Shown here piece by piece: positions 1-12,632 of a stretch of 12,632 nucleotides of DNA. Positions within the stretch are counted from its first letter, which is position 1, and each line of letters begins with the position of its first letter. This DNA comes from a virus (lineage: Duplodnaviria > Heunggongvirae > Uroviricota > Caudoviricetes): the IMG/VR virus record IMGVR_UViG_2778261687_000011, positions 1-12,632 of that record. The stretch is one strand, 5' to 3'. The position numbers and the translations under genes were made by a program. The notes beneath the pieces are model-generated. The model had not been told where the DNA came from, ran no database searches, and saw only the letters and a program-made list of their open reading frames with translations.

Positions 1-546
1 AAGCGTGCGTATTGCCTGAAAACACAACCCGCTACGGGGGAGACTTACCCGAAATCTGATTTATTCAACAAAGCCGACTTCCGTCTGATGTCACGAGAGG
101 TCGTAGAGAATATCAAACAGCTACCCGAAAGAAATCTATTTATGAAGGGGGTTCTTTCGTGGGTTGGCGGAAAAACTGATGTTGTAGAATACGTGCGTGC
201 TGAACGTGTCGCAGGTGATTCTAAATTCAACGGCTGGAAGTTGTGGAACCTAGCACTTGAAGGTATAACAAGTTTCTCCACATTCCCGCTGAGGATGTGG
301 ACATACATTGGATTGTTTGTTGCCGGTCTATCTTTTTTATATGGCGCGTGGATGATTGTAAACACTCTTGCCTTTGGCAACCCAGTTCGTGGTTACCCTT
401 CGCTCCTTGTTTCAATCCTTTTCCTTGGCGGAATACAGTTGATTGGAATCGGTGTGTTAGGTGAATATATCGGCAGAATTTATATTGAAACCAAACAACG
501 TCCAAAATATGTTCTAAAAAATGTCAGGAAAGACAGCAATGACTAA
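1..546 (+). CDS. gtrB: Bactoprenol glucosyltransferase GtrB (GT2 family), 5'-partial; continues upstream of the window
   Basis: Frame 1 is open from base 1. The translation [14 protein letters not shown]...[21 protein letters not shown]...[16 protein letters not shown]...[12 protein letters not shown] closely matches my recollection of the GtrB C-terminal half, including the two C-terminal transmembrane helices. The first ~25 codons match less well than the rest. Confidence 0.88.
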
Positions 547-2020: not shown

Positions 2021-2690
2021 ATGGCAAAAACAGACATTAATAACGGAGTTGTAGTTGCACGTTTTATTGCTATATTGCTGGTAGTTTTACTACATGCCAG
2101 TGCCGGACCTTTCGGGGCTAAACTCGCTCCTGACTGGGAGTGGGCCAATATTTACAGCGCAATATCGAAACAATGCATTGGTATTTTCATTGTCATAACT
2201 GGCTTTCTCTATGCAAATAAAGAAATTGAGTTTAAAGGCTTCATCCTTAAAGGAATAAATCTCCTTGTAATTCCACTGGCGTTTTGGTGGGTAATTTACG
2301 CAGCATATTTGATACTTTTTAAAAATGCAGGCATAGATAGTTTTAGCCCTATGAAACCATCAAGCATACACCTTTGGTTTATGTACGATTACATTGCAAT
2401 TTATCTTTTTGTTCCAATGATAGTTATGGGATGTAGAGAAATAAGAACGCGCTATAGCCTTTTGATATTCGCAGTTCTGTTTTACAGCACATCCTTATAC
2501 CCAGAGCTTAATGCAATAGGAATACCCGCTCCGAAGATAAACGTTCCATTTGCAAGTTATTTAATGCTCTATGTTTTTGCAGGTTACATAGCTGCACGCA
2601 AGGAAGATTTAATAATTAAGTACAGGATTGTATTTGCTCTCCTTTCATTGACACTTTCCGTTGTTACCATTTATGTTAATAAAGGGATAC
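2021..2690 (+). pseudogene. Acyltransferase family 3 (Oac/OafA-like O-antigen acetyltransferase) gene, 3'-truncated at about 2690
   Basis: N-terminal ~224 aa are hydrophobic with acyltransferase-3-like segments (VVARFIAILLVVLLHASAGPFG, IFIVITGFLY, HLWFMYDYIAIYLFVPMIV). At about 2690 composition switches from AT-rich to GC-rich and the rest of ORF 2021..3250 becomes Arg/Pro/Ser-rich nonsense that is the reverse strand of phage genes. Full-length family members are about 330 aa. Confidence 0.6.
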
Positions 2691-3030
2691 CGAATTCAAT
2701 CAGGCGCCAGTGTGGCGTCGGGGCGTTTTCACCGAGATCAGGATGTTTTTTCAGGACTGCACCATGCAGCACGCCGATCCTAAATCCGAGGTTACCGGTG
2801 GTTTTGAAGATGCGGTTGTTCCATCGCATAGCCACGTTTGCGGCAATGCTGCGGCCTGTTAACGGGTCATCAATCCTGGCGGCGTTCGCTTTTGCTTTTT
2901 CGACAATCACGTTACCAGCGCGCCGGAGTGCGGCCCGTCCACCGCGACGACGCAGATCGTCACTGATGGATGATAGTTTCCCCACCAAACTCTCAACTCC
3001 AGTAATGCTGATATCAATGCCGTCAGCCAT
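2671..3030 (-). CDS. HK97 gp10-family tail-completion/head-tail joining protein, C-terminally truncated at the junction
   Basis: Translation contains IDDPLTGRSIAANV...TPHWRLIEFG, typical of the HK97 gp10 family, but ends 5 codons after EFG with residues (IPLLT) encoded by AT-rich non-phage DNA. Family members normally continue about 40-50 aa further. GAGGAG SD upstream of ATG 3030. Confidence 0.65.
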   Translation of the reverse strand: MADGIDISITGVESLVGKLSSISDDLRRRGGRAALRRAGNVIVEKAKANAARIDDPLTGRSIAANVAMRWNNRIFKTTGNLGFRIGVLHGAVLKKHPDLGENAPTPHWRLIEFGIPLLT

Positions 3031-3355
3031 CGTTCACTCCTCGCGAGCATGGCAGCGTCAGATATTCCCGGCCGCTTTTATCGTCTTCCAGCACGCCCTG
3101 AATATCGTAAACGCGTCCACGGTAAAGAATGCGGTGCTTATCCGTGACATCATCACGCCAGCGAATAGTGATCCGTGTGGTTACCTCGTTTTGTCCGGCC
3201 TGCGCGGCCACAAAATCGCGAGCAGACAAATCGGTAACGTTGGCCCATAGCTCAGCCATGTCAGCCCATCCATTAACCACCGCGCCGGTAACCGGGCTCT
3301 GCGTTTTAACAGGCTTCTGAAGCATGATTCGTTTATTGAGCTTCCCCGCCTGCAT
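3023..3355 (-). CDS. Phage head-closure / head-tail adaptor protein
   Basis: 110-aa ORF in the expected position between connector and gp10-like gene; ITIRWRDDV...RILYRGRVYDIQGV resembles the head-closure family; AGGGGG SD upstream; 8-nt overlap with the downstream gene. Confidence 0.7.
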   Translation of the reverse strand: MQAGKLNKRIMLQKPVKTQSPVTGAVVNGWADMAELWANVTDLSARDFVAAQAGQNEVTTRITIRWRDDVTDKHRILYRGRVYDIQGVLEDDKSGREYLTLPCSRGVNDG

Positions 3356-3357
3356 GA

Positions 3358-3537
3358 TTACCCCCTGGGCTTGCCGCTGAGGTAAGTATGCTGTGGAAGT
3401 TCAGCTTCACTCTCTTCAACTACCATTGACTGGTAGATCACCGCCGTCAGAGCTTCGTTTGACTCCGCCAGCCGATTCATCGCTGCTGTCTGGGCTGCCA
3501 TTGCTGTCAGCAGCTGGTTTACCTGTTGCTCGTTCAT
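3358..3537 (-). CDS. Small hypothetical protein (59 aa), head-module gene not present in the ORF track
   Basis: Hand translation of the minus strand gives MNEQQVNQLLTAMAAQTAAMNRLAESNEALTAVIYQSMVVEESEAELPQHTYLSGKPRG with a natural helical composition; its stop lies 2 nt before the head-closure ATG. Weak SD. Competes with the overlapping ORF 3416..3607. Confidence 0.4.
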   Translation of the reverse strand: MNEQQVNQLLTAMAAQTAAMNRLAESNEALTAVIYQSMVVEESEAELPQHTYLSGKPRG

Positions 3538-3597
3538 AGGCGATTTTCATCCACTTTTTTAGCCACTCACGGCGGGCGGCACATCCTGAACAGGCCA

Positions 3598-3930
3598 TCA
3601 GTGCCACCTCCTGTGCTGCATCAGTAGTGCTTCAACTCCAAGCGGTAGCTCAGAAGTAATATTTCCGACATTGACTGCTTCCCGGTTTGCGTACCAGTGA
3701 CCGATAAGAAGCAGCATTGCCGCCCATATGCCGGAAGTGAAAAGGATCTCACGTGGCGGCATTTCCCCTTCCACTGGCGGCGTCAACGACTCCACCAGCG
3801 TGCCGTCGCAGAATTTCTCAACATAATCGACGGCAGCCGATGCGTAGGCCGCAATAAGAGAATCTTCGGCGTCGCTATCAACCCTCAGATGCGTCTTTAT
3901 CTGCGCCATCTGCTCCGCGCTTATTTCCAC
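3598..3930 (-). CDS. Phage gp6-like head-tail connector protein
   Basis: N-terminus AQIKTHLRVDSDAEDSLI and C-terminal HWYANRE...LPLGVEALL are characteristic of the gp6-like connector family. GTG start at 3930 with GGGGT upstream; an in-frame ATG at 3909 is an alternative start. Confidence 0.75.
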   Translation of the reverse strand: MEISAEQMAQIKTHLRVDSDAEDSLIAAYASAAVDYVEKFCDGTLVESLTPPVEGEMPPREILFTSGIWAAMLLLIGHWYANREAVNVGNITSELPLGVEALLMQHRRWH

Positions 3931-4120
3931 CTTTACCCCCGGTTTTGGCTTTTACAGGCTGTTCAGGATCGGAGGTTTTCGCCTTTTCGGGATCAACCTC
4001 TTCGGCCAGGTGCAGTTTTACCAGCGCTTCGCCGATTTCTTTCTTCACTACGCGGGTTTCGCCCTGGGATACTGTACCCAGGTGATAATGCGAGAACATA
4101 CGAAGAGCTTTAATTTTCAT
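3878..4120 (-). CDS. Hypothetical small protein immediately downstream of the major capsid gene
   Basis: 80-aa ORF starting 37 nt after the capsid stop; the N-terminal ~55 aa look protein-like, the Gly/Lys-rich C-terminus overlaps the gp6-like start by 32-53 nt and may be frame noise. No clear SD. Confidence 0.3.
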   Translation of the reverse strand: MKIKALRMFSHYHLGTVSQGETRVVKKEIGEALVKLHLAEEVDPEKAKTSDPEQPVKAKTGGKGGNKRGADGADKDASEG

Positions 4121-4156
4121 ACATTAAACGCGGCCATTGCTGACCGCGTCCTCCTG

Positions 4157-5320
4157 TCAGGAGCCAGCAGAAACCGCAATATCGCCAGTGACGATAGCTG
4201 CAGGACGATAGTGCGCCAGCGCCAGGCGTTCTTCGCACAGGATGGTCAGCATGTTTTTAACGAAGTTATCGCGATCCTGGTTGCTGATCTCGATAGTGGC
4301 ATCCATGCGGTCCCACACCTGCGATGCCAGACCAAACGCACCAACGGTAAATTTGCCTGCCGTCTGCGCCGTGGTCGAAACTACCGGCAGACCCCAGAGC
4401 ACTTTGGAGGCAAAGGCCTGTGGGCCGCCAAGGATGTAATTGCCGTTAGCATCTTTCAGCAGCGCGATACGGTGCCAGTCCGCCGGGTTGAGAATGATAC
4501 CGTCGGCTTCAAACTCGCTCAGCGACACCTGATAGATTGCATGCGCCAGAACATCAGCACCGGTATCTCCGGTCGCGTTGAGTGCAGTTTCGTAGTCGTT
4601 CGCCACCACGTTCAGCCCCTGGAGGTTGTCGCCGGTGCCATCACCGTTCAGCATCTGGTTTTCTTCCACCAGCGCCAGGCCATACATCATGCGGGAGTTG
4701 ATGTAGGACTGCAGTGCCGGGGCATCGTCCATGATCTGGCGCGACGCCTGGATCCAGTGAGCGATGGTTTTCACGTTCGCCGTTTCTTTGGTGAAGGTAA
4801 TGTTACTTTCCGGCTTGAGGGTACCTTCCGCCACTGGCGCCGCGGCGTTGGTAAACACATTTTCACGCACGTATTCAAGCGCGTTACTGGTGATGCGCCC
4901 CTGCGCCAGCAGGTCACGTACGGTCAGGCGACGCAGGCCCGGCATAAGGATACCCGGTTGCTGCTGCGGCAGAACCAGTGCGCCGGCGGAGTTCGCGCCA
5001 GAGCCGATCGCTTTGTCGAAGCTGGTCACTTTCGCTTTGGTACGTGAGCCGTCCCAGCCTTTCATCAGGTCTTCGGACACGCGTTCTGCAAAGGATTTCT
5101 GGGCGGTCTGTTCAGGCGAGTTGCCAGCCAGCTTCTGCTCAAGATCGAACAGTCGAGTGCCGGTGGCTTTCAGCTCATCCTGGGCTTTCGCCAGGTCGGT
5201 CTGCAGCTGCTTGTTGATTTCGCCGTTCTGGTTGATGGATTTACGCTGTTCCTCGATAAGCTCCTTCACTTCTTTCTGGGAGTTCTCGATCGCTTTTTCC
5301 AGGGTTGCTAATTCAGACAT
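4157..5320 (-). CDS. Major capsid protein, HK97 family (with N-terminal delta/scaffolding domain)
   Basis: 387 aa; coiled-coil N-terminal ~100 aa followed by a capsid domain, the same size and architecture as HK97 gp5; sits directly after the prohead protease gene; GGAG SD. Confidence 0.92.
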   Translation of the reverse strand: MSELATLEKAIENSQKEVKELIEEQRKSINQNGEINKQLQTDLAKAQDELKATGTRLFDLEQKLAGNSPEQTAQKSFAERVSEDLMKGWDGSRTKAKVTSFDKAIGSGANSAGALVLPQQQPGILMPGLRRLTVRDLLAQGRITSNALEYVRENVFTNAAAPVAEGTLKPESNITFTKETANVKTIAHWIQASRQIMDDAPALQSYINSRMMYGLALVEENQMLNGDGTGDNLQGLNVVANDYETALNATGDTGADVLAHAIYQVSLSEFEADGIILNPADWHRIALLKDANGNYILGGPQAFASKVLWGLPVVSTTAQTAGKFTVGAFGLASQVWDRMDATIEISNQDRDNFVKNMLTILCEERLALAHYRPAAIVTGDIAVSAGS

Positions 5321-5331
5321 GTTTTGCTCCG

Positions 5332-6012
5332 TTAGGGATTCCGCAGGTTAGCGGCAAAGGAAGTTATGCGCTGTGCCAGCGCGTCAATGTCGCCGCCGCC
5401 GAACTCGCTTCGGCCTGCGGACTTCACGCGGGCGATAAACGCCTGCGCTTCAGCACGCGTAAGGCCGACTGAATCCCTCAGCCAGGCCTCCGCGTCACGA
5501 ATGGTTTTAATGCCGTCAATGCTCTTCATGGCGGTTACGCCCGCCAGTTCGTTGGCCGGGAATGTGCAGACACTGATTTCCCGCAGATAAGTAATGTTTT
5601 TGAAAATGAGGCCGGACGTGCCGACGGTGTAATCGTCAGGGCCGACTGAAAAACCCACCGACATGCCTTCAACCGTGCCATGCTGCATGGCGGCCTTCAG
5701 ATCCTCGGCCAGGCTCAATCTGGGTGTGAGCTGCCCTCGGACATAAAGCCCCTTCTCGTCTTCGTGCATGGCATCCCATTTGCCAACCGGGATGGCTCGC
5801 GTCTGGTGGTTGAAGAACATCGCCACCTTGCGGCTCTGGTTAGCCACCACACCAGCGAAAGCCCCGGGCAAAATAATGTCGCCGTCGGCGTCGGTGTTAT
5901 TGAAAACCGAGGCATACCCTTCAAACGTTCCCTTGCTGCCGTCGCCGGTGAACTTGATTTCGGTCTGGTCGAACGCCAGCGTCTTGTGAATATCAGGCAT
6001 CGTGGCCCCCAT
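5332..6012 (-). CDS. Prohead maturation protease, HK97 family (peptidase U35/S78)
   Basis: 226 aa, between portal and capsid genes; sequence ADGDIILPGAF...GLYVRGQL...FSVGF is typical of HK97-type prohead proteases. An alternative ATG at 5998-6000 (M5) has a better SD. Confidence 0.9.
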   Translation of the reverse strand: MGATMPDIHKTLAFDQTEIKFTGDGSKGTFEGYASVFNNTDADGDIILPGAFAGVVANQSRKVAMFFNHQTRAIPVGKWDAMHEDEKGLYVRGQLTPRLSLAEDLKAAMQHGTVEGMSVGFSVGPDDYTVGTSGLIFKNITYLREISVCTFPANELAGVTAMKSIDGIKTIRDAEAWLRDSVGLTRAEAQAFIARVKSAGRSEFGGGDIDALAQRITSFAANLRNP

Positions 6013-6039
6013 AAAAATTAAGCCCCGTCATTGCGGGGC
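6011..6039 (-). terminator. Terminator-like hairpin (GCCCCG-CAAUGA-CGGGGC) plus UUAAUUUUU at the portal/protease boundary; possible attenuator
   Basis: Read from the sequence; the stem encodes the last portal codons and the U tract runs into the protease start. Confidence 0.25.
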
Positions 6040-7289
6040 TCTTTGTTTGTTCCGAGGTCGGTAATGGGAACGTTCTGCGACTGGCGCGTCGCCACATCAC
6101 CGCCAGGCAAAGGCGGAAGATTATCCAGTCGCCGCACTTCGTTAACGGTACGGATCCCTGTATTAACCATGGTTTGCATGAAGGTAGCGCGGCTCGCTGA
6201 GTCACCACGAAGCAGGCCATCAAGGTTATGCTCGGCGTGCAGCCTTCCCTGATCGGACTCTTTTACCAGCCAGCGCTCTATGCTGTACTCCCAGCGATCG
6301 AGATAGGGCTTCAGGGTGTACTGGAGAAAGCCGAGGTTCTGCTGTTCAATGCCGCTGCCCCATGAAGTTGTTTTTTCAACATCACCAACCAGGTGCGGCG
6401 GAACACCGTAAAAGCGCGCCAGCTCTGCCACCTGAAACTTACGGGCCTCAAGCATCTGTGCGTCCTGCGGCGAGATGCCTATCGGCTGCGTGGTGAACCC
6501 GCTCTCAATGATCCAGAGGCGTTTTCTCACCGGGCCGCCGGCAATCTCCTTAAAGTTTTCCTCCAGCTGTCCGCGCTGCTCTTTGGTCAGCACCTTGCCG
6601 TCAGTCATCAGGATTTGCGGTGATTTGGCGCCGTTGGCGAAAAACTCCCGCTGGTTATCTTCCATAGCAATAGCCACGCCTGCAGATTTGGCGCTGAACG
6701 CCAGCGGCGATAACCCGACCAGCCCGTTAAAGCCGAAGCCTTTCAGGTGGAATATTTCTTTCGGCTTAAAGTCCACATACTCGCTGTCGCGCCGGTACCG
6801 GTAGATGACATTTTTTCCATCGAGCCGGACATCCATATTCGCGCTCATCAGCGGAAGCAGGCTGATGACATCGCCGACGCTGTTTCGCTCCACATGCGCG
6901 TAGGCATTGCCGTAGGCGCAAAGCTGCATTGTCATTGCCTCGCGAAACTCCAGCGCGGTCATGAAGTTGTTGGGCCGGAAGCGAAGAAGCTTCGCCAGCG
7001 GGTTCTGGTTGTCGACTTTCTTTCGCTGATCATCGATGGTTTCAAAAACATCCAGCGGTAACGAGGCTGTTACGGTGGAGATGAGCCGGATGCAGGCCCA
7101 TACGGTGCTGATCGACATGTTGCGCTCATCGCTCACCACCGATTCCCCGACGGTGCCGTGAGCTGATGTGCCCGCCATCTGCGAGCCATTATCCGGTGAA
7201 ACCAGGCGGCCACCGGTCAGAATAGAGGCCATGCGCGCCCAGAATGGCGATCGCGTTCGCAGGTCAATGCTGTAATCGGTATCTGCCAT
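6018..7289 (-). CDS. Portal protein, HK97 family
   Basis: 423 aa, immediately downstream of TerL and upstream of the protease; size and position match the HK97 portal family. Confidence 0.9.
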   Translation of the reverse strand: MADTDYSIDLRTRSPFWARMASILTGGRLVSPDNGSQMAGTSAHGTVGESVVSDERNMSISTVWACIRLISTVTASLPLDVFETIDDQRKKVDNQNPLAKLLRFRPNNFMTALEFREAMTMQLCAYGNAYAHVERNSVGDVISLLPLMSANMDVRLDGKNVIYRYRRDSEYVDFKPKEIFHLKGFGFNGLVGLSPLAFSAKSAGVAIAMEDNQREFFANGAKSPQILMTDGKVLTKEQRGQLEENFKEIAGGPVRKRLWIIESGFTTQPIGISPQDAQMLEARKFQVAELARFYGVPPHLVGDVEKTTSWGSGIEQQNLGFLQYTLKPYLDRWEYSIERWLVKESDQGRLHAEHNLDGLLRGDSASRATFMQTMVNTGIRTVNEVRRLDNLPPLPGGDVATRQSQNVPITDLGTNKEPRNDGA

Positions 7290-7291
7290 TT

Positions 7292-8824
7292 TTAAACGCT
7301 CAAAAAGTTGTAAATGAAATCGTTAACGTCGCCCGGATCCTCCACCTCATCACTGGTCTGTGCGCCGATAGACATCGCCAGCGCCACCATGCCGTCGATA
7401 CGGCCGCTCGATTTGCCTTTCACAAACTTGCGGTTACCGGCGGGGTCGGTGATTACCGTGGCGTTTTTGGCGCACATCTCGAGGATCGGATGGTTGCCGT
7501 GCTTCAGTTGCGCGCCGAGCAGTTTAGCTTCCAGCTCCCTGAGCGCAGGCGACATGGAGACAAAACCCTGGCCGAATTCCACGAACCGCTCGAGCTCCGC
7601 CTCAGTGAAACCGGCGTCGATGAGATGCGGGCGAAGGAAGCGCATGTTGTAGCGGTCGAACGCCAGCGCCCGGACGTTACAGATATCAAAAACGCGCCGC
7701 AGCTCCCGTGCAATAAAGGCGTACTCAATGGCTTTGCCCGGCGTCGTGTTCAGCCAGCCCTGCTTCGCCCATATGTCATAAGGCACGCGATCGTTACGCG
7801 CCTTGTCCGCCAGCCCCTCTTCAGGTAGCCAGAACTTACAGTGCACATCGCCCTGCGTTGTGTTGAGCACCAGCGCGGTCAGGTCCGACACGCTGGAAAG
7901 GTCCAGCCCGCCCCAGACGGTAGCGCCCGCCAGTTCGCCAGGCTCTTCTTTGTTCATGTGCCAGACGGTCTGGCTGACGAACGGGCTTTTCGCCTCAACC
8001 CTGCGGTTCAGTACAAGGTTCTCAAATTCAGCCTGGCGCGACGGGAGGCGCTTGGCGCTGGCGGCCATATCCAGCACTTCTTTCTGGTTCATGAACACAT
8101 CGAAGGCCGGGTTAGCCAGCCTGATGGCTTCGACAGAGAAAGGATCGATATCTTCCGGCGCGGTCTGCAGCCGTACCACCGTTCGCGGATCGGCACCGGT
8201 CAGGCCATCATCAATCAGCAGGCTGAGCAGGTCGCTCGCATCGGGTGCCTGGGTGCTGATGATTACCGAGATAGGGTTGTCCTGAGCAGCGGTCGCGGTT
8301 TCCAGAGCTTCATAAAGCGGGTCACGCGGCCCGCGCACCTGGCCCAGCTCATCATGGGCGACAAATCGCGGCGAGAAACCGTAGGCCGTTGTGGCCTCAG
8401 CGCTCAACGCGCGATAGTAAGAGCCCAGTTCAGGGCAGTGAATCTCTTTGGCTGAATCTTTTATGGCAACGTATTGCATCAGTGTCGGATTCATACGACA
8501 CATTTTCGAAGCAAGGTTAAACAGAATTGCTGCCTGATCGCGTGATCGGGCTGCGGAATACAATTGTGAGTTAGGCGCTGATTCGGGACCAACCAGATAA
8601 AGCAGCATGATTATCGCTGTCTCTACCGTCTTGGCGTTCTTTCGCCCCCTGCTGATAATCGCGCGGCGAGTACCATGCTCATTATCAAATATTGCTCTGA
8701 AGTCATCCTTCATGAAAGGAGCCATCTTCAGAGGCTGGCCTACGTACTTCCCTTCAGGGATCAGGATGTGTTTCTCACACCAGGCTATATTGCGCTCAGC
8801 CCTTGTAAGCTTTTTTTTCGCCAT
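7292..8824 (-). CDS. Terminase large subunit
   Basis: 510 aa; Walker A-like SRGRKNAKT near the N-terminus, Walker B-like FVAHDELG, C-terminal nuclease-like region; follows the TerS gene after a 13-nt gap. Confidence 0.92.
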   Translation of the reverse strand: MAKKKLTRAERNIAWCEKHILIPEGKYVGQPLKMAPFMKDDFRAIFDNEHGTRRAIISRGRKNAKTVETAIIMLLYLVGPESAPNSQLYSAARSRDQAAILFNLASKMCRMNPTLMQYVAIKDSAKEIHCPELGSYYRALSAEATTAYGFSPRFVAHDELGQVRGPRDPLYEALETATAAQDNPISVIISTQAPDASDLLSLLIDDGLTGADPRTVVRLQTAPEDIDPFSVEAIRLANPAFDVFMNQKEVLDMAASAKRLPSRQAEFENLVLNRRVEAKSPFVSQTVWHMNKEEPGELAGATVWGGLDLSSVSDLTALVLNTTQGDVHCKFWLPEEGLADKARNDRVPYDIWAKQGWLNTTPGKAIEYAFIARELRRVFDICNVRALAFDRYNMRFLRPHLIDAGFTEAELERFVEFGQGFVSMSPALRELEAKLLGAQLKHGNHPILEMCAKNATVITDPAGNRKFVKGKSSGRIDGMVALAMSIGAQTSDEVEDPGDVNDFIYNFLSV

Positions 8825-8837
8825 TCGCTAATCAGCC

Positions 8838-9272
8838 TTAATCAATTTCCCAGGGCTTTTTCTCCCGAGCCAGATTGCTGTTGGCCCGGCCAACAGTTTT
8901 GGGATCGGCAGTAGCCTGGCGGGTAATCCGCAGGCGGGTCGCAAGAGAAGATGCCGATCGCACCTCGCGCTCGCGCATCGTGAGCAGCCTGTCGTAGCGC
9001 TTCAGCCCGTCTTCGCGGGACAACCACTCGAGCTCAAACTCTTCAATCTGGGTGGTGAGCAGCCGGGCCTGCACCACATGCCGACAGTACATCTCCAGCA
9101 TGTCCCGGTGTGTTTCGGTGAATGAGCTGGCCGGGTTGTCATTAACCAGCCGGACCCAGACGTTAATCTCCGGATCGCTCAGGTGAATGGACGGCTGCAA
9201 CCTGCTTTCAGCCAGTGCCGGCAGCGAGACAGCAGACGTCGCAGCCAGAGACTTTCTGCCTCGCTGTGCCAT
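8838..9272 (-). CDS. Terminase small subunit (probably P27/HK97-like family)
   Basis: ATG at 9270-9272 (aa 45 of the longer TTG-initiated ORF 8838..9404) preceded by AAGGA. Basic N-terminus MAQRGRKS; position directly upstream of TerL and downstream of HNH. The family name is an inference. Confidence 0.72.
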   Translation of the reverse strand: MAQRGRKSLAATSAVSLPALAESRLQPSIHLSDPEINVWVRLVNDNPASSFTETHRDMLEMYCRHVVQARLLTTQIEEFELEWLSREDGLKRYDRLLTMREREVRSASSLATRLRITRQATADPKTVGRANSNLAREKKPWEID

Positions 9273-9404
9273 CGCGTTTTTCCTTTTTTTCTGGACGTTT
9301 TTAAAAATAAAACTGGGAGCGCGGTCTTTAAGAATTTGGTACCAGAGTTTTACCCCTCCCCCTCCCTTACCAACATAAATATGAGAATTGATATCATTTC
9401 TCAA

Positions 9405-9614
9405 TTACGTGTAAGCTTGAGTGAGGTATGCCAGAGGGCACCAGACGATCACCAACGCCGATTGGCAATGTGAGGGTAATGGTAGGGTAATGGTAGGCAG
9501 CATCTCACCGACCTCATGATTGAAGGAGACTGCAGTGGCATGTTTAAAGCTCACGCTATCAATGCTCAACTCAATCAACTTCCCATCACGGTATTCAATC
9601 TTCATGTCTTGCAT
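9405..9614 (-). CDS. Hypothetical small protein between HNH and terS genes (may instead be non-coding cos region)
   Basis: ATG preceded by AGGAG that overlaps the HNH stop (translational-coupling geometry); the N-terminal ~40 aa look natural, but the C-terminal part reads through an 11-bp tandem repeat. Confidence 0.35.
   Translation of the reverse strand: MQDMKIEYRDGKLIELSIDSVSFKHATAVSFNHEVGEMLPTITLPLPSHCQSALVIVWCPLAYLTQAYT
9473..9497. repeat. Tandem direct repeat, about 2.3 copies of the 11-mer agggtaatggt, in the HNH-terS interval
   Basis: Read directly: agggtaatggt agggtaatggt agg. Coordinates may be off by 1. Confidence 0.55.
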
Positions 9615-9626
9615 CAACTACTCCTG

Positions 9627-9917
9627 TTACCAGATAACACGGCCTTCATTATCGAACTCGGTGACCGTTCCGCCCTTCTCCATCCTCTGCTTTACCGAGT
9701 CGTGGCAACGTTTGCAAAGTGACTGAAGATTATCCGGATCATGAAAGAGCCTATCGTCTCCTTTGTGCGGGATGACATGGTCAACGATCGTTGCCGCTAT
9801 CACCTGATTGCGCCGGAGGTGGAACTCACAAAGAGGTTGCTTCTGAAGCTGGTGATAGCGGAGTCGGTACCAACGCTTGGAATTGTAGAGGCTATGCCAA
9901 GGTGAATTGGATGCCAT
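9627..9917 (-). CDS. HNH endonuclease (terminase-associated)
   Basis: 96 aa with Cys/His pairs (CEFH...DHVIPH...CKRCH) typical of phage HNH proteins; lies upstream of terS as in HK97-like cos phages; GAGGGAG SD. Confidence 0.88.
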   Translation of the reverse strand: MASNSPWHSLYNSKRWYRLRYHQLQKQPLCEFHLRRNQVIAATIVDHVIPHKGDDRLFHDPDNLQSLCKRCHDSVKQRMEKGGTVTEFDNEGRVIW

Positions 9918-9994
9918 GGTTAATCTCCCTCTGCATTGCTAAATCGCCAATTCCGGCTAACGGCGTGCCCAGGCTCACAGCTGAAAGACTTTCT

Positions 9995-10024
9995 TTGAAG
10001 TGCGCGTGAGATGCGCTTTATACT
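9995..10024 (+). promoter_or_regulatory. Candidate sigma70 promoter (TTGAAG, 18-nt spacer, TATACT) for the moron gene
   Basis: Hexamers read from the sequence about 95 nt upstream of ATG 10120 in the divergent intergenic region. Not validated. Confidence 0.3.
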
Positions 10025-10119
10025 CCAGCAATAGCCGCCAGCAATGCCAGTAAGTATCAAATTACAAAATTATCTTTGTTCATTTTGTTGAGTGACACCT
10101 CAAAAAGGAGGCATGGGAA

Positions 10120-10653
10120 ATGAGTCTGGAAAAATTGCTAATCAAAGATAGAAAATGTGGTTCATGTTCTGTTTGTTGTAAATCCCTGAGAATCGAAGAG
10201 CCAGAGCTTAAAAAATTTGCTGGAGTGCCATGTCAGCATCTTAAAGCACAGGGCGGATGTTCGATTTATAATGATCGCCCATCTCTATGTCGTACGTGGT
10301 ACTGCGGATGGAGAGTTTTAGGTATCGGTCCGGAAATGAGGCCTGATCGTTGTGGTGTTCTTATTCGCTTCGATGGCAAAGCTCTGTGCTTTCAGCCAGT
10401 AAATGATGGTCAAGTTACTACATTGCTTGATCCAGAGCCTTTACGTGTTTTAAGCAGTTCAATTGCAAATGGGATGACCGTTCAGATTTCGATTCCGACA
10501 AAAGAAGGCTTTTGCTCTTCAAATGTCGACGTTACAGCAGCTATGACCGAGGTAGTTAAAACCAGAGAGTTTGATAAGATTCGTGCAACTATGATTGGAT
10601 TAATTCAATTCGCTGCGAATTCGAAGACAGACCCGATTGCTCCTTTAAATTAG
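10120..10653 (+). CDS. YkgJ/UPF0153-family cysteine-cluster protein (CxxCxxCC putative zinc/iron-chelating domain); moron
   Basis: 177 aa with N-terminal CGSCSVCC then C..H...GGCSIYNDRP..C....C, matching the CxxCxxCC domain family that includes flagellin lysine-N-methylase FliB. Strong SD AAGGAGG 9 nt upstream. Lower GC than the flanking phage genes and opposite orientation to the late operon. Confidence 0.75.
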   Translation: MSLEKLLIKDRKCGSCSVCCKSLRIEEPELKKFAGVPCQHLKAQGGCSIYNDRPSLCRTWYCGWRVLGIGPEMRPDRCGVLIRFDGKALCFQPVNDGQVTTLLDPEPLRVLSSSIANGMTVQISIPTKEGFCSSNVDVTAAMTEVVKTREFDKIRATMIGLIQFAANSKTDPIAPLN

Positions 10654-10661
10654 CATCCGAT

Positions 10662-10679
10662 GCCGGGGTTGCACCCGGC
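10662..10679 (+). terminator. Weak terminator-like hairpin (gccggg-gttgca-cccggc) after the moron gene
   Basis: 6-bp GC stem 9 nt after the stop codon; the following tract TTAACAAAC is only weakly U-rich. Confidence 0.25.
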
Positions 10680-11047
10680 TTAACAAACGAGAAACATACG
10701 AATCGGTTGCAAATCTCAAGCAGCTCTTGTCTTTTAACATTAGACGATCGTTTCATTAGCATTTCATCTGATGTACTGAATAAGTTTTTCATAAAACATT
10801 CCCATTCTAATTATCTAGGCTGCATTTAAATGCCTCACCACTTCCCGGAGTGGCCACGCTCATGCCCTTGAGTTGCTGTCGCTTCATCGCCGCTTATAAC
10901 CGGTGCGCGTCTGGCGTTCGCGCTGCTCTACCGGAGCTTATTTTGATATAAGAACCTTGACCCGTCGCTATACAGGCTCGCTCAATGGCGACTCAGGGCA
11001 GCATCATTACTGCTGCATTGCCTTTCGGCTGCGGTCTAACCGCTTTG

Positions 11048-11278
11048 CTACTTGATTTCGAGTTTCTCCTTCTGACAATTTGCCTGCCACGCTTTGTTAT
11101 GCGTCAGGATGTCGCGCTTGGTCTGCTTATCCAACACATCCCAGTCATTATCTGTTGCATAGATAGGATGAACCCAGTCGCACGCCGTATCGACTACCTC
11201 AACCCTTACGGGTCCAGTTTGTGCGCAGCTCGCGATCAACGTCGTCGCCAGGCATATGATTAACTTTCTGCTGTACAT
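11048..11278 (-). CDS. Outer-membrane spanin (Rz1-like lipoprotein, o-spanin), overlapped architecture
   Basis: Internal ATG at 11276-11278 of ORF 11048..11449 gives MYSRKLIICLATTLIASC..., a signal peptide with lipobox LIASC, followed by a short periplasmic domain with extra Cys. Starts inside the i-spanin gene in another frame and extends beyond it. Confidence 0.6.
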   Translation of the reverse strand: MYSRKLIICLATTLIASCAQTGPVRVEVVDTACDWVHPIYATDNDWDVLDKQTKRDILTHNKAWQANCQKEKLEIK

Positions 11279-11471
11279 TACTGGCCTCTCTGGTGACTTC
11301 TGCCTGACGTTCTGCCACTGCAACCTTCGCCGCTGCGTTTTCTTCAGTGCGTTGTTGATCGGCTTTCGCTTCTGCTTTGCTGGTTCCGCGAATATGGCCA
11401 AGACCAAACCCACCAGCAGCGGCAACACAGATAGCACCAATGACACCAATGATGATTTCTACAATGCTCAT
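11199..11471 (-). CDS. Inner-membrane spanin (Rz-like, i-spanin)
   Basis: 90 aa with one N-terminal transmembrane helix (IVEIIIGVIGAICVAAAGG) then a charged Ala/Glu/Gln-rich coiled-coil-like region; start overlaps the endolysin stop (ATGA); contains the o-spanin start. Confidence 0.6.
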   Translation of the reverse strand: MSIVEIIIGVIGAICVAAAGGFGLGHIRGTSKAEAKADQQRTEENAAAKVAVAERQAEVTREASNVQQKVNHMPGDDVDRELRTNWTRKG

Positions 11472-11998
11472 GCAATCACCGCTTTCGCTTTGCCGTAACG
11501 CACGCGTCTGTCGTTAATGCCGTTCTGACCGCCATTGATAATCTGAGTGATGCGCACCAGGTCATCGGTGTACTTCAGGCAACCTTTGGAGGCGTAGAAC
11601 CATGCAGCAGAACGCGCAGCATTGATGTCTTTCTCCAGCAGTTCAGGGTTAGTAACCAGGTCAAGCTTCAGACCATTGCCGCAATCACGGTAATTGGTGA
11701 GACCGGTAATCTGAATTAATCCGCGCCCACGGTATTTCCAGCCATCACCAGCAGCTTTATTACCCAGGCGGTTGCTGTATACCAGGTTCGCGATAGCTTC
11801 CTGACTTGCTGGCTTACCGTTGGCACGTCCAAGCATTAAGGCCTGGTAGTTCGTTACCCGGCGTCCAAACGTCGTCAGTAATGCGGCAGGCGTGTAGTTG
11901 AAGTTCTCCACCAGCGCAGAGAATCCCGCCGATTCATGTCCTACCTGAGCAATGAACATCGCCTTATCTTTTGGTTCAGTGATGCCGAACTCTTTCAT
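11468..11998 (-). CDS. Endolysin, glycoside hydrolase family 19 (chitinase-like), missing about 25-30 N-terminal residues
   Basis: FIAQVGHESAGF...GDGWKYRGRGLIQITGLTNYR...ITQIINGGQNGINDRR are GH19 endolysin motifs. The frame stays open and homologous-looking upstream of M1 for about 15 codons, then hits a stop at about 12044 with no start codon. No holin gene upstream. Confidence 0.85.
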   Translation of the reverse strand: MKEFGITEPKDKAMFIAQVGHESAGFSALVENFNYTPAALLTTFGRRVTNYQALMLGRANGKPASQEAIANLVYSNRLGNKAAGDGWKYRGRGLIQITGLTNYRDCGNGLKLDLVTNPELLEKDINAARSAAWFYASKGCLKYTDDLVRITQIINGGQNGINDRRVRYGKAKAVIA

Positions 11999-12032
11999 TG
12001 CATCCGTACAGGCTAACCATGAGCATAGTTCG

Positions 12033-12632
12033 ATGTCACGCGTTTACAGGTGGGGATATCAACGTGGATTTGTGCCAGGCAACCCATGCGTAGGCGTCGA
12101 TAAATACCCTAAACCTCAGCGCGACCGATACATTACGGATGAAGAGTATTTAGCAATTTATGACTGTGCTACTGATCCGGTAAAAGCCGCAATGGAAATT
12201 GCTTATCTCTGTGCAGCGAGGGTTTCCGATGTTCTGAAAATGGACTGGAATCAGATAATGGATAAAGGAATTTTCATTCAACAGGGTAAAACTGGAGTTA
12301 AGCAGATTAAAGCGTGGACAGACCGCTTGCACTCCGCTGTCAATCTTTGCAGGAAATCAGGGGAAGATGGCGCTGTCATCAAAACCATGTACGGAGAGCG
12401 ATATTCCTATAAAGGTTTCAATGAAGCCTGGAGAAAGGCTAGGAATGCGGCTGCTGAAAAAATTGGCAGACCGTTAGACTGCACGTTCCATGATCTGAAG
12501 GCGAAAGGCATTTCTGACTATGAAGGAAGTGGCCGTGATAAGCAAAAATTCAGTGGTCACAAAACTGAATCACAGGTGTTGGTATACGACAGGAAAGTAA
12601 AAATTAGCCCAACTTTAAACAGAAAAATGTGA
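12033..12632 (+). pseudogene. Lambda-family tyrosine integrase, C-terminal catalytic domain only (5'-truncated)
   Basis: Catalytic-domain motifs ARVSD (Arg-I), QQGKTG (Lys), TFHDLK (His), GHKTESQ...LVYDR (His, Tyr) with spacing parallel to lambda Int; the N-terminal arm-binding and core-binding domains are absent. The preceding part of ORF 11952..12632 is the reverse strand of the endolysin 5' end. Stop codon at the window end. Confidence 0.75.

What the first reader, a model, noticed from the sequence alone, without database searches (positions are those of the whole stretch)
11990..12060. Junction B: N-terminally truncated GH19 endolysin abuts a 5'-truncated integrase; early region and holin deleted
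Seen in sequence: the endolysin frame is open and homologous-looking upstream of its first Met but is cut by a stop at about 12044 with no start. On the other strand a lambda-type integrase begins mid-protein at about 12033 with only its catalytic domain. Established knowledge: in lambdoid prophages int and the lysis cassette are separated by about 15-25 kb of early genes, and a holin precedes the endolysin. Inference: a second internal deletion removed everything between int and the endolysin.
Basis: partly seen in the sequence, partly recalled or inferred. Interest (0 to 1): 0.5.

Follow-up and report, generated by a model that had tools for sequence, protein, structure and literature searches.

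The report
Deletion scar in decaying E. coli prophage
This is an ordinary scar of prophage decay: about 14 kb between a phage cell-wall-lysis gene and the phage integrase gene was lost, leaving two head-to-head gene fragments joined at a 4-base overlap.

Summary
The junction is real, but it sits at 12005-12008, not at about 12033-12044. On the minus strand, a GH19 endolysin is missing its first 24 codons. An ORF of 176 aa (11468-11998) survives from a conserved internal Met28; full length is 203 aa. On the plus strand, a lambda-type tyrosine integrase is missing its first 362 nt. Residues 122-329 of 329 remain (12005-12632).

One IMG/VR phage contig carries both genes intact: the integrase is 100% identical in protein and the endolysin 98%. 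In that contig the two breakpoints each lie at a CGTA and are 13,952 bp apart. The window keeps a single CGTA.

The lost interval in that relative holds two holins, antiterminator Q, DUF968, RusA, a methylase, a replication gene, cII-, cro- and cI-like regulators, early-left genes and a small DUF4224 gene next to int.

The element is a degraded gtr/oac serotype-converting prophage with HK97-like head genes. It sits at tRNA-Ser(cga), next to mtfA-yeeJ, in E. coli. Other E. coli strains carry the same integrase cut at different points.

This is routine prophage decay and of low interest.

The parts
11468..11998 (-). N-terminally truncated GH19 endolysin ORF, 176 aa, equal to residues 28-203 of the 203-aa full-length protein. 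It starts at the conserved internal Met28. The motif AQVGHESAGFSALVENFNY, which holds the two presumed catalytic Glu, is retained.
   Evidence: PF00182; a full-length relative matches PDB 4OK7 at E=4.5e-81 from its residue 3; full-length relatives at 98% and 95% aa identity.
11999..12008 (-). Last 10 nt of endolysin-derived DNA upstream of Met28: codons T25-D26-A27 plus the third base of codon I24. No longer translated.
   Evidence: Identical to L007 and L008 up to this point, unrelated beyond it.
12005..12008 (.). Deletion junction. A single CGTA is shared by both parental sides (4-bp microhomology).
   Evidence: Lysin side of the reference contig: CATTGCATC-CGTA-ATCGG. Int side: AAAAGCCG-CGTA-CAGGC. 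Window: CATTGCATC-CGTA-CAGGC.
12005..12632 (+). 5'-truncated lambda-type tyrosine integrase, running from the third base of codon 121 to the stop. It encodes residues 122-329 of 329: the end of the core-binding domain plus the whole catalytic domain. The arm-binding domain and most of the core-binding domain are lost.
   Evidence: PF00589; 100% aa identity to the E. coli CUWW10 integrase over 122-329; alignment to lambda Int..
11952..12632 (+). Chimeric ORF of 226 aa created by the junction: 18 codons read from the antisense of the endolysin 5' remnant, fused in frame to integrase residues 122-329. Gene callers instead start at Met131 (12033), giving 199 aa.
11199..11471 (-). Intact i-spanin-like gene (90 aa) immediately downstream of the endolysin, with a 4-nt overlap. 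Context: the rest of the lysis cassette survives.
   Evidence: a 92-aa homologue in the same position..
11048..11278 (-). Candidate o-spanin (about 76 aa from MYSRKL..., lipobox LIASC) overlapping the i-spanin. Context.
   Evidence: sequence; homologous ORF in L008. The lipoprotein assignment is an inference from the sequence motif.

Best explanation
Junction B is the scar of one internal deletion in a lambdoid, HK97/ST64B-like serotype-converting prophage. The prophage is integrated at the tRNA-Ser(cga) gene next to mtfA in an E. coli chromosome.

In the intact arrangement, int is read towards the tRNA, and the late operon (Q, holins, endolysin, spanins, HNH, terminase, head) is read the other way. 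The early and immunity region lies between them.

An illegitimate recombination event joined a CGTA in codons 24-25 of the endolysin to a CGTA in codons 121-122 of int. It probably used those 4 bp of microhomology. In the closest relative it removed about 14 kb: the 5' third of int, the small DUF4224 gene next to int, the early-left genes, cI/cro/cII, replication genes, methylase, RusA, DUF968, Q, both holins and the first 24 endolysin codons.

Both surviving fragments are most likely non-functional pseudogenes (inference):
- They have lost their own promoters.
- The integrase fragment lacks its DNA-targeting N-terminal domains.
- The endolysin fragment lacks the holins and its first 27 residues.

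Shown: the truncations, the exact junction, the content of the missing interval in relatives, and the tRNA context. Inferred: the microhomology-mediated mechanism, the loss of function, and that int and the late genes belonged to one phage.
For: 1. Alignments to E. coli relatives break at 12002 and 12005.
2. The full-length endolysins of close relatives are 203 aa, and the window matches them only from the T of codon 24 onward.
3. The full-length integrase is 329 aa, and the window matches only from nt 363.
4. The same IMG/VR contig carries both full-length genes. The two CGTA sites are at contig positions 8911-8914 and 22863-22866, that is 13,952 bp apart.
5. Pfam on that interval finds Phage_holin_8, Phage_holin_3_7, Antiterm (Q), DUF968, RusA, LexA_DNA_bind, MT-A70, Phg_2220_C, CII (CP76), YdaS/cro-like, HTH_3+Peptidase_S24 (cI-like) and DUF4224.
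6. Two other intact relatives show the same order: the E. coli F467 prophage (10.6 kb from the int start to the endolysin start) and Klebsiella phage KpF5 (same int family at 88.8% aa and the same head genes; about 14.2 kb).
7. An assembly with the identical junction shows tRNA-Ser(cga) 116 nt past the int stop, then mtfA, tRNA-Asn and a 2358-aa invasin/intimin-like adhesin gene (annotated yeeJ at the same position in E. coli Z142-3). This flank is 99.8% identical to E. coli.
8. Microhomology of 4 nt or more is expected at only about 1.6% of random junctions (my calculation: P(k) = (k+1)(1/4)^k(3/4)^2).
9. No sigma-70-like promoter was found in 11400-12632.
Against: - The reference contig is a mosaic relative, not the true parent. 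It diverges from the window beyond the spanins. The 13,952-bp size and the parental bases flanking CGTA are therefore proxies.
- No intact phage was found that matches the window over int, lysis and head genes all at once.
- Loss of function was not tested. The endolysin fragment keeps its catalytic motif and an in-frame conserved Met. The int fragment keeps every catalytic residue, and its 15-17 nucleotide differences from full-length relatives are all synonymous.
- The promoter scan is a crude consensus scan.
Confidence: 0.9

Rival explanations
1. The two fragments come from two different elements that sat side by side at the tRNA-Ser site: a gtr-int remnant like that of E. coli CUWW10 and a separate HK97-like prophage. 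On this reading the junction is a deletion or recombination between them, not a deletion within one prophage.
For: The int fragment is 97.6% identical to E. coli CUWW10, while the late genes are only 83-87% identical to the best complete E. coli genome. CUWW10 has the int next to gtr genes without any head genes. The reference contig shares int and the lysis cassette but not the head region.
Against: The whole window has exactly the gene order and orientation of one prophage of this type: gtr and oac reading inward, head, terminase and lysis reading the opposite way, and int reading out to the tRNA. Int plus lysis cassette co-occur in one phage contig. Int plus these head genes co-occur in phage KpF5. 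Unequal identity levels are expected from phage mosaicism. In either case the junction is still a deletion scar.
Confidence: 0.07
2. The junction is an assembly artefact (a chimeric contig).
For: Only two assemblies in the large index carry the exact 176-aa protein. None of 5,426 complete E. coli genomes has the junction.
Against: The identical junction occurs in an NCBI assembly (GCA_002226155.1) and in a separately built Logan assembly of run SRR3988171. It is a clean in-register join with a single CGTA and no repeat long enough to mislead an assembler. Whether the two assemblies derive from different isolates is unknown.
Confidence: 0.02
3. Both ORFs are complete, normal short proteins: a compact endolysin and a small recombinase.
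For: Both have in-frame ATG starts and are called as genes by automatic callers.
Against: All close homologues are 203 aa and 329 aa. Their conserved N-terminal regions align to solved full-length structures: 4OK7 from residue 3, and lambda Int from residue 78. DNA homology on each side stops abruptly at the same 4 bp. PGAP marks analogous int fragments at this site in other strains as 'incomplete; missing N-terminus'.
Confidence: 0.01

Closest known systems
Cryptic (defective) lambdoid prophages of E. coli, formed by internal deletions and IS insertions. From my own knowledge: K-12 DLP12, Rac, Qin and e14.
   Same: A prophage fixed in place by loss or truncation of int and of the early region, with gene fragments abutting at deletion scars. 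At this same tRNA-Ser site, Z142-3 has the same int cut to its last 369 nt against a truncated YmfL gene. PK5 has it cut to 153 nt against an IS3 fragment. CUWW10 has it full length with an IS1 upstream.
   Different: The breakpoints here are unique to this lineage (0 of 5,426 complete genomes). The junction carries no IS, only a 4-bp microhomology.
Klebsiella phage KpF5 and Salmonella phage ST64B (temperate phages with HK97-like heads and this integrase family)
   Same: The integrase is 88.8% (KpF5) and 84.5% (ST64B) identical at protein level. The KpF5 terminase-to-capsid genes are 84.6% identical in DNA to window 3518-9362. The gene order int / early / Q / lysis / HNH / terminase / head is the same.
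   Different: Those are complete phages of 38-40 kb. The window element lacks the early region (this junction) and the tail genes (Junction A). It carries gtr/oac O-antigen modification genes instead.
Salmonella phage SPN1S endolysin (PDB 4OK7), a GH19 endolysin of Gram-negative phages
   Same: A full-length relative of the window protein aligns over residues 3-201 at E=4.5e-81, including the AQVGHES...ENFNY motif.
   Different: The window copy lacks the first 27 residues, which are conserved between SPN1S and the E. coli relatives (QF..A.I...LAARWF......AM).
Lambda integrase (PDB 1Z1B, 1Z1G, 1P7D, 1AE9)
   Same: Same fold family. Residues aligning with lambda R212, H308, H333 and Y342 are present in the fragment.
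   Different: Only about E=1e-12 similarity. The position of lambda R311 is Lys in this whole integrase family. The window copy lacks the arm-binding domain and most of the core-binding domain.
SfV-type serotype-converting phages of Shigella flexneri. The gene order is recalled from my own knowledge and was not tested here.
   Same: gtr genes at one prophage end reading inward, int at the other end next to a tRNA, and an HK97-like head module.
   Different: No sequence comparison with SfV was run. The attachment site here is tRNA-Ser(cga), not thrW.

Membership tests
Glycoside hydrolase family 19 (phage endolysin subgroup) | Significant match to the GH19 profile | tested here: met
   PF00182, E=3.6e-10, 40.5 bits against a cutoff of 25.5. 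A close full-length relative matches SPN1S endolysin 4OK7 at E=4.5e-81.
Glycoside hydrolase family 19 (phage endolysin subgroup) | Two catalytic glutamates in the HES...EN motif | tested here: met
   The window has AQVGHESAGFSALVENFNY, which aligns with AQVGHESGGFTRLQENFNY of 4OK7. That these two Glu are the catalytic pair is taken from established GH19 knowledge and was not tested.
Glycoside hydrolase family 19 (phage endolysin subgroup) | Complete protein (about 203-209 aa with a conserved N-terminal segment) | tested here: not met
   Only residues 28-203 are encoded. The closest relatives L007 and L008 and E. coli F467 are all 203 aa. This is a gene fragment of a family member.
Glycoside hydrolase family 19 (phage endolysin subgroup) | Peptidoglycan-degrading activity | not testable with these tools
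   Needs expression and a lysis or zymogram assay of the 176-aa product.
Tyrosine recombinase / lambda-type phage integrase | Match to the catalytic-domain profile | tested here: met
   PF00589, E=1.1e-11, 45.2 bits against a cutoff of 27.1, covering profile positions 2-167 of 172.
Tyrosine recombinase / lambda-type phage integrase | Catalytic residues R-K-H-R-H-Y | tested here: inconclusive
   Alignment to lambda Int shows R, H, H and Y in place, and the SKTGVK segment (lambda K235 region) aligns with GKTGVK. The second Arg (lambda R311) is Lys (FHDLKAKG). The Lys is invariant in relatives down to 47% identity, including isolated temperate phages, so it is a family trait rather than decay.
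Tyrosine recombinase / lambda-type phage integrase | N-terminal arm-binding and core-binding domains | tested here: not met
   Residues 1-121 of 329 are absent. The alignment to lambda Int begins at residue 78 of the full-length relative, so most of the core-binding region is lost.
Tyrosine recombinase / lambda-type phage integrase | Gene adjacent to its attachment site at the 3' end of a tRNA gene | tested here: met
   tRNA-Ser(cga) lies 116 nt past the stop, with its 3' end facing int, in the assembly that has the identical junction. The layout is the same in CUWW10, Z142-3 and PK5.
Defective (cryptic) prophage | Genes essential for excision, immunity, replication and lysis timing are missing relative to intact relatives | tested here: met
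   The interval holding holins, Q, replication genes, cI/cro/cII and the DUF4224 gene is present in relatives and absent here. Tail genes are also absent.

The most novel reading that the evidence does not exclude
The fragments might not be dead. One possibility is that the 226-aa chimeric ORF (or the 199-aa ORF from Met131) yields a catalytic-domain-only recombinase that is still used, for example as a modulator of related integrases at this tRNA-Ser site. Another is that the Met28-initiated endolysin, with its intact spanins, is kept as a holin-independent lysis function. The only hints are that the int fragment's differences from full-length relatives are all synonymous and that both fragments keep their catalytic motifs. 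Both hints are equally explained by a recent deletion.
Probability: 0.03. Interest if true: 0.35.

Novelty: already known. Interest (0 to 1): 0.1.

Why it matters
It matters little beyond annotation.

- The 176-aa 'endolysin' and the 199- or 226-aa 'integrase' should be annotated as pseudogene fragments of one defective prophage.
- The element cannot excise or lyse on its own.
- The base-exact junction (CGTA, 12005-12008) is a usable lineage marker for this E. coli clone.
- It adds one clean example of a short-homology deletion to the picture of stepwise prophage decay at this tRNA-Ser hotspot, where other strains carry the same integrase cut at different points.

Tried and rejected
- An exact 40-mer across the junction found nothing in genome contigs, which holds one genome per species. 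The junction is strain-level, so this says little.
- megablast of the junction region against 5,426 complete E. coli genomes found no genome spanning it.
- The Python environment never received loci L002-L005, so window-versus-locus BLAST could not be run there. DNA alignment and get_sequence were used instead.
- My first junction alignment against L007 used wrong coordinates and was uninformative. It was redone.
- A search for the reference contig through the head-completion protein did not return it. This fits, which shows that the contig diverges beyond the spanins.
- A literature search for 'ST64B serU' only hit the word 'serum'. The ST64B attachment site is therefore not cited.
- The ST64B IntA paper (PMC12455584) concerns a different 407-aa integrase and was set aside.
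- IS-mediated deletion was considered and rejected, because there is no IS sequence at the junction. The only IS piece in the window is at 1-76.
- An 8-nt inverted match, CATCCGTA at 12001-12008 against TACGGATG at 12134-12141, is at chance level. By my estimate about 1.5 such matches are expected in 451 nt. Being inverted, it could not produce a deletion.
- Structure prediction was not run. Only the truncated window protein could have been submitted, and the tool returns no coordinates from which to judge the role of the missing 27 residues.

Full report
**What is in the sequence**

On the minus strand, ORF 11468-11998 encodes 176 aa and matches Pfam Glyco_hydro_19 (40.5 bits against a cutoff of 25.5). 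On the plus strand, a frame open from an ATG at 11952 to the stop at 12632 matches Pfam Phage_integrase over almost the whole catalytic-domain profile (45.2 bits against 27.1). The two genes face away from each other, with their 5' ends abutting.

**Mapping the breakpoints**

megablast against 5,426 complete E. coli genomes gave two non-overlapping matches.
- The endolysin and spanin side matches a prophage of strain F467 up to window position 12002 (83% over the junction region; 87% over the whole 3503-12002 match).
- The integrase side matches strain CUWW10 from 12005 to 12632 (97.6% identity).
- No genome spans the junction.

The F467 endolysin is 203 aa and the CUWW10 integrase is 329 aa. 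The window integrase is 100% identical in protein to CUWW10 over residues 122-329 and unrelated before that.

IMG/VR holds closer endolysins at 98% and 95% aa identity (L007, L008). Both are 203 aa and begin MNQSQFQQAAVISAGLAARWFQPITDAMKEFG. Against these, the window's endolysin-derived DNA runs to 12008, that is codons T25-D26-A27 plus the last base of codon I24. The integrase-derived DNA starts at 12005, the third base of codon 121. The four bases 12005-12008, CGTA, belong to both sides.

**A relative carrying both genes intact**

The contig that holds the 98% endolysin (IMGVR_UViG_3300014922_000105, 23,490 bp) also holds the 100%-identical full-length integrase. The orientation is the same divergent one as in the window.
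- Lysin side of the contig: CATTGCATC-CGTA-ATCGGCTG.
- Integrase side of the contig: AAAAGCCG-CGTA-CAGGCTAACC.
- Window: CATTGCATC-CGTA-CAGGCTAACC.

Converted to contig coordinates, the two CGTA sites are at 8911-8914 and 22863-22866. The window therefore equals this relative minus 13,952 bp, with one CGTA retained.

The missing interval was read except for 596 nt that were not fetched. Pfam finds the following there:
- two holins (Phage_holin_8, Phage_holin_3_7);
- antiterminator Q, DUF968 and RusA;
- a LexA-type DNA-binding protein and an MT-A70 methylase;
- a replication-initiation-type protein (Phg_2220_C/HTH_36);
- cII-like, cro-like (YdaS) and cI-like (HTH_3 + Peptidase_S24) regulators;
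- several small early-left ORFs and a DUF4224 gene directly upstream of int.

Two further intact relatives have the same order. In the F467 prophage the int start and the endolysin start are 10.6 kb apart. In Klebsiella phage KpF5 they are about 14.2 kb apart. KpF5 has this integrase family at 88.8% aa identity and head genes 84.6% identical in DNA to the window.

**Context of the element**

An NCBI assembly (GCA_002226155.1, contig NLGV01000045.1) and a Logan assembly (SRR3988171) encode the identical 176-aa protein. The NCBI contig, read base by base, carries the identical junction; the Logan contig has the same gene order around it. Beyond the int stop come, in order:
- tRNA-Ser(cga) after 116 nt, with its 3' end facing int;
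- mtfA, then tRNA-Asn;
- a 2358-aa invasin/intimin-like adhesin gene, annotated yeeJ at the same position in E. coli Z142-3.

This flank is 99.8% identical to E. coli, so the host is E. coli.

The window as a whole reads as follows:
- the terminal 76 nt of an IS903B;
- a truncated gtrB, then gtrC, then a truncated acyltransferase, all on the plus strand;
- on the minus strand: gp10-like (short), head completion, connector, capsid, protease, portal, TerL, TerS, HNH, spanins and the truncated endolysin;
- the truncated int on the plus strand.

That is the order and orientation of one serotype-converting prophage with HK97-like head genes.

**Mechanism**

The simplest account is one illegitimate recombination between the two CGTA tetramers. 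Microhomology of at least 4 nt is expected at about 1.6% of random joins (my calculation). There is no IS sequence at the join. This supports a short-homology-dependent deletion, but the step is inferred. The reference contig is a mosaic relative that diverges from the window beyond the spanins. It is not the true parent, so the deletion size and the flanking parental bases are proxies.

**Consequences**

These are inferred, not shown.
- The integrase fragment has lost residues 1-121. By alignment with lambda Int, that removes the arm-binding domain and most of the core-binding domain.
- The endolysin fragment has lost residues 1-27, which are conserved with the solved SPN1S endolysin 4OK7. 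It has also lost both holins and the Q-dependent late promoter region.
- A consensus scan finds no sigma-70-like promoter in 11400-12632.
- Both fragments keep their catalytic motifs. The integrase fragment differs from full-length relatives only at synonymous sites. This fits a recent deletion.

**Comparison with what is known**

This is standard prophage decay. The same integrase at the same tRNA-Ser site is cut at other points in other E. coli strains.
- In Z142-3 only the last 369 nt remain, abutting a truncated YmfL gene. In that strain a holin also abuts a portal gene.
- In PK5 only the last 153 nt remain, abutting an IS3 fragment.
- In CUWW10 the gene is complete, with an IS1 86 nt upstream.
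- PGAP labels the Z142-3 and PK5 fragments 'incomplete; missing N-terminus'.

**Verdict**

The truncations and the junction are real, but the junction is at 12005-12008.
- Upstream of Met28, only three codons are endolysin. The rest is antisense integrase.
- There is a conserved in-frame start, contrary to 'no start'.
- The interpretation, an internal deletion of the early region and the holin, is supported.
- Nothing here departs from known biology, and interest is low.

Noticed in passing
window 1-76: The first 76 nt are the terminal segment of an IS903B (IS5 family) element, 100% identical to copies on thousands of enterobacterial plasmids. It abuts a 5'-truncated gtrB/yfdH-like glycosyltransferase whose homology starts at about 76.
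   Followed up: partly
window about 2671-3030 (Junction A): An O-antigen acyltransferase is cut at its 3' end. DNA homology to E. coli acyltransferases ends at 2690, and Pfam covers only aa 12-219 of ORF 2021-3250. It abuts a shortened HK97-gp10-like gene (119 aa against 161 aa in F467). All tail genes are missing between them.
   Followed up: partly
window 12495-12515 (FHDLKAKG); L002, L006, L249-L251: This integrase family has Lys where lambda Int has the second catalytic Arg (R311). The Lys is invariant in relatives down to 47% identity, including phages mEp390, ZF40, ST64B and KpF5. It is therefore a family trait, not decay.
   Followed up: partly
L247 (E. coli Z142-3) 6680-7370; L248 (E. 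coli PK5) 6999-7151; L002 (CUWW10) 2856-4628: The same integrase next to tRNA-Ser/mtfA is independently truncated at different points in other E. coli strains, or is flanked by IS1 or IS3. In Z142-3 a holin gene also directly abuts a portal gene. This tRNA-Ser site is a recurrent site of prophage decay.
   Followed up: partly
window 12005-12632: All 15-17 nucleotide differences between the window's integrase fragment and two full-length relatives are synonymous (100% protein identity at about 97.5% DNA identity).
   Followed up: no
window about 9000-11050 against L007 3950-5990: The IMG/VR contig that shares the integrase and the lysis cassette becomes unrelated to the window just beyond the spanins. 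This is a mosaic boundary between the lysis cassette and the HNH/terminase module.
   Followed up: no
window 10120-10653 (+): A 177-aa ORF with a CxxCxxCC zinc/iron-chelating motif (PF03692, 22.5 bits, just under the cutoff of 23) lies on the opposite strand between the spanins and the HNH gene. It may be a moron. F467 has a different hypothetical gene at that position.
   Followed up: no
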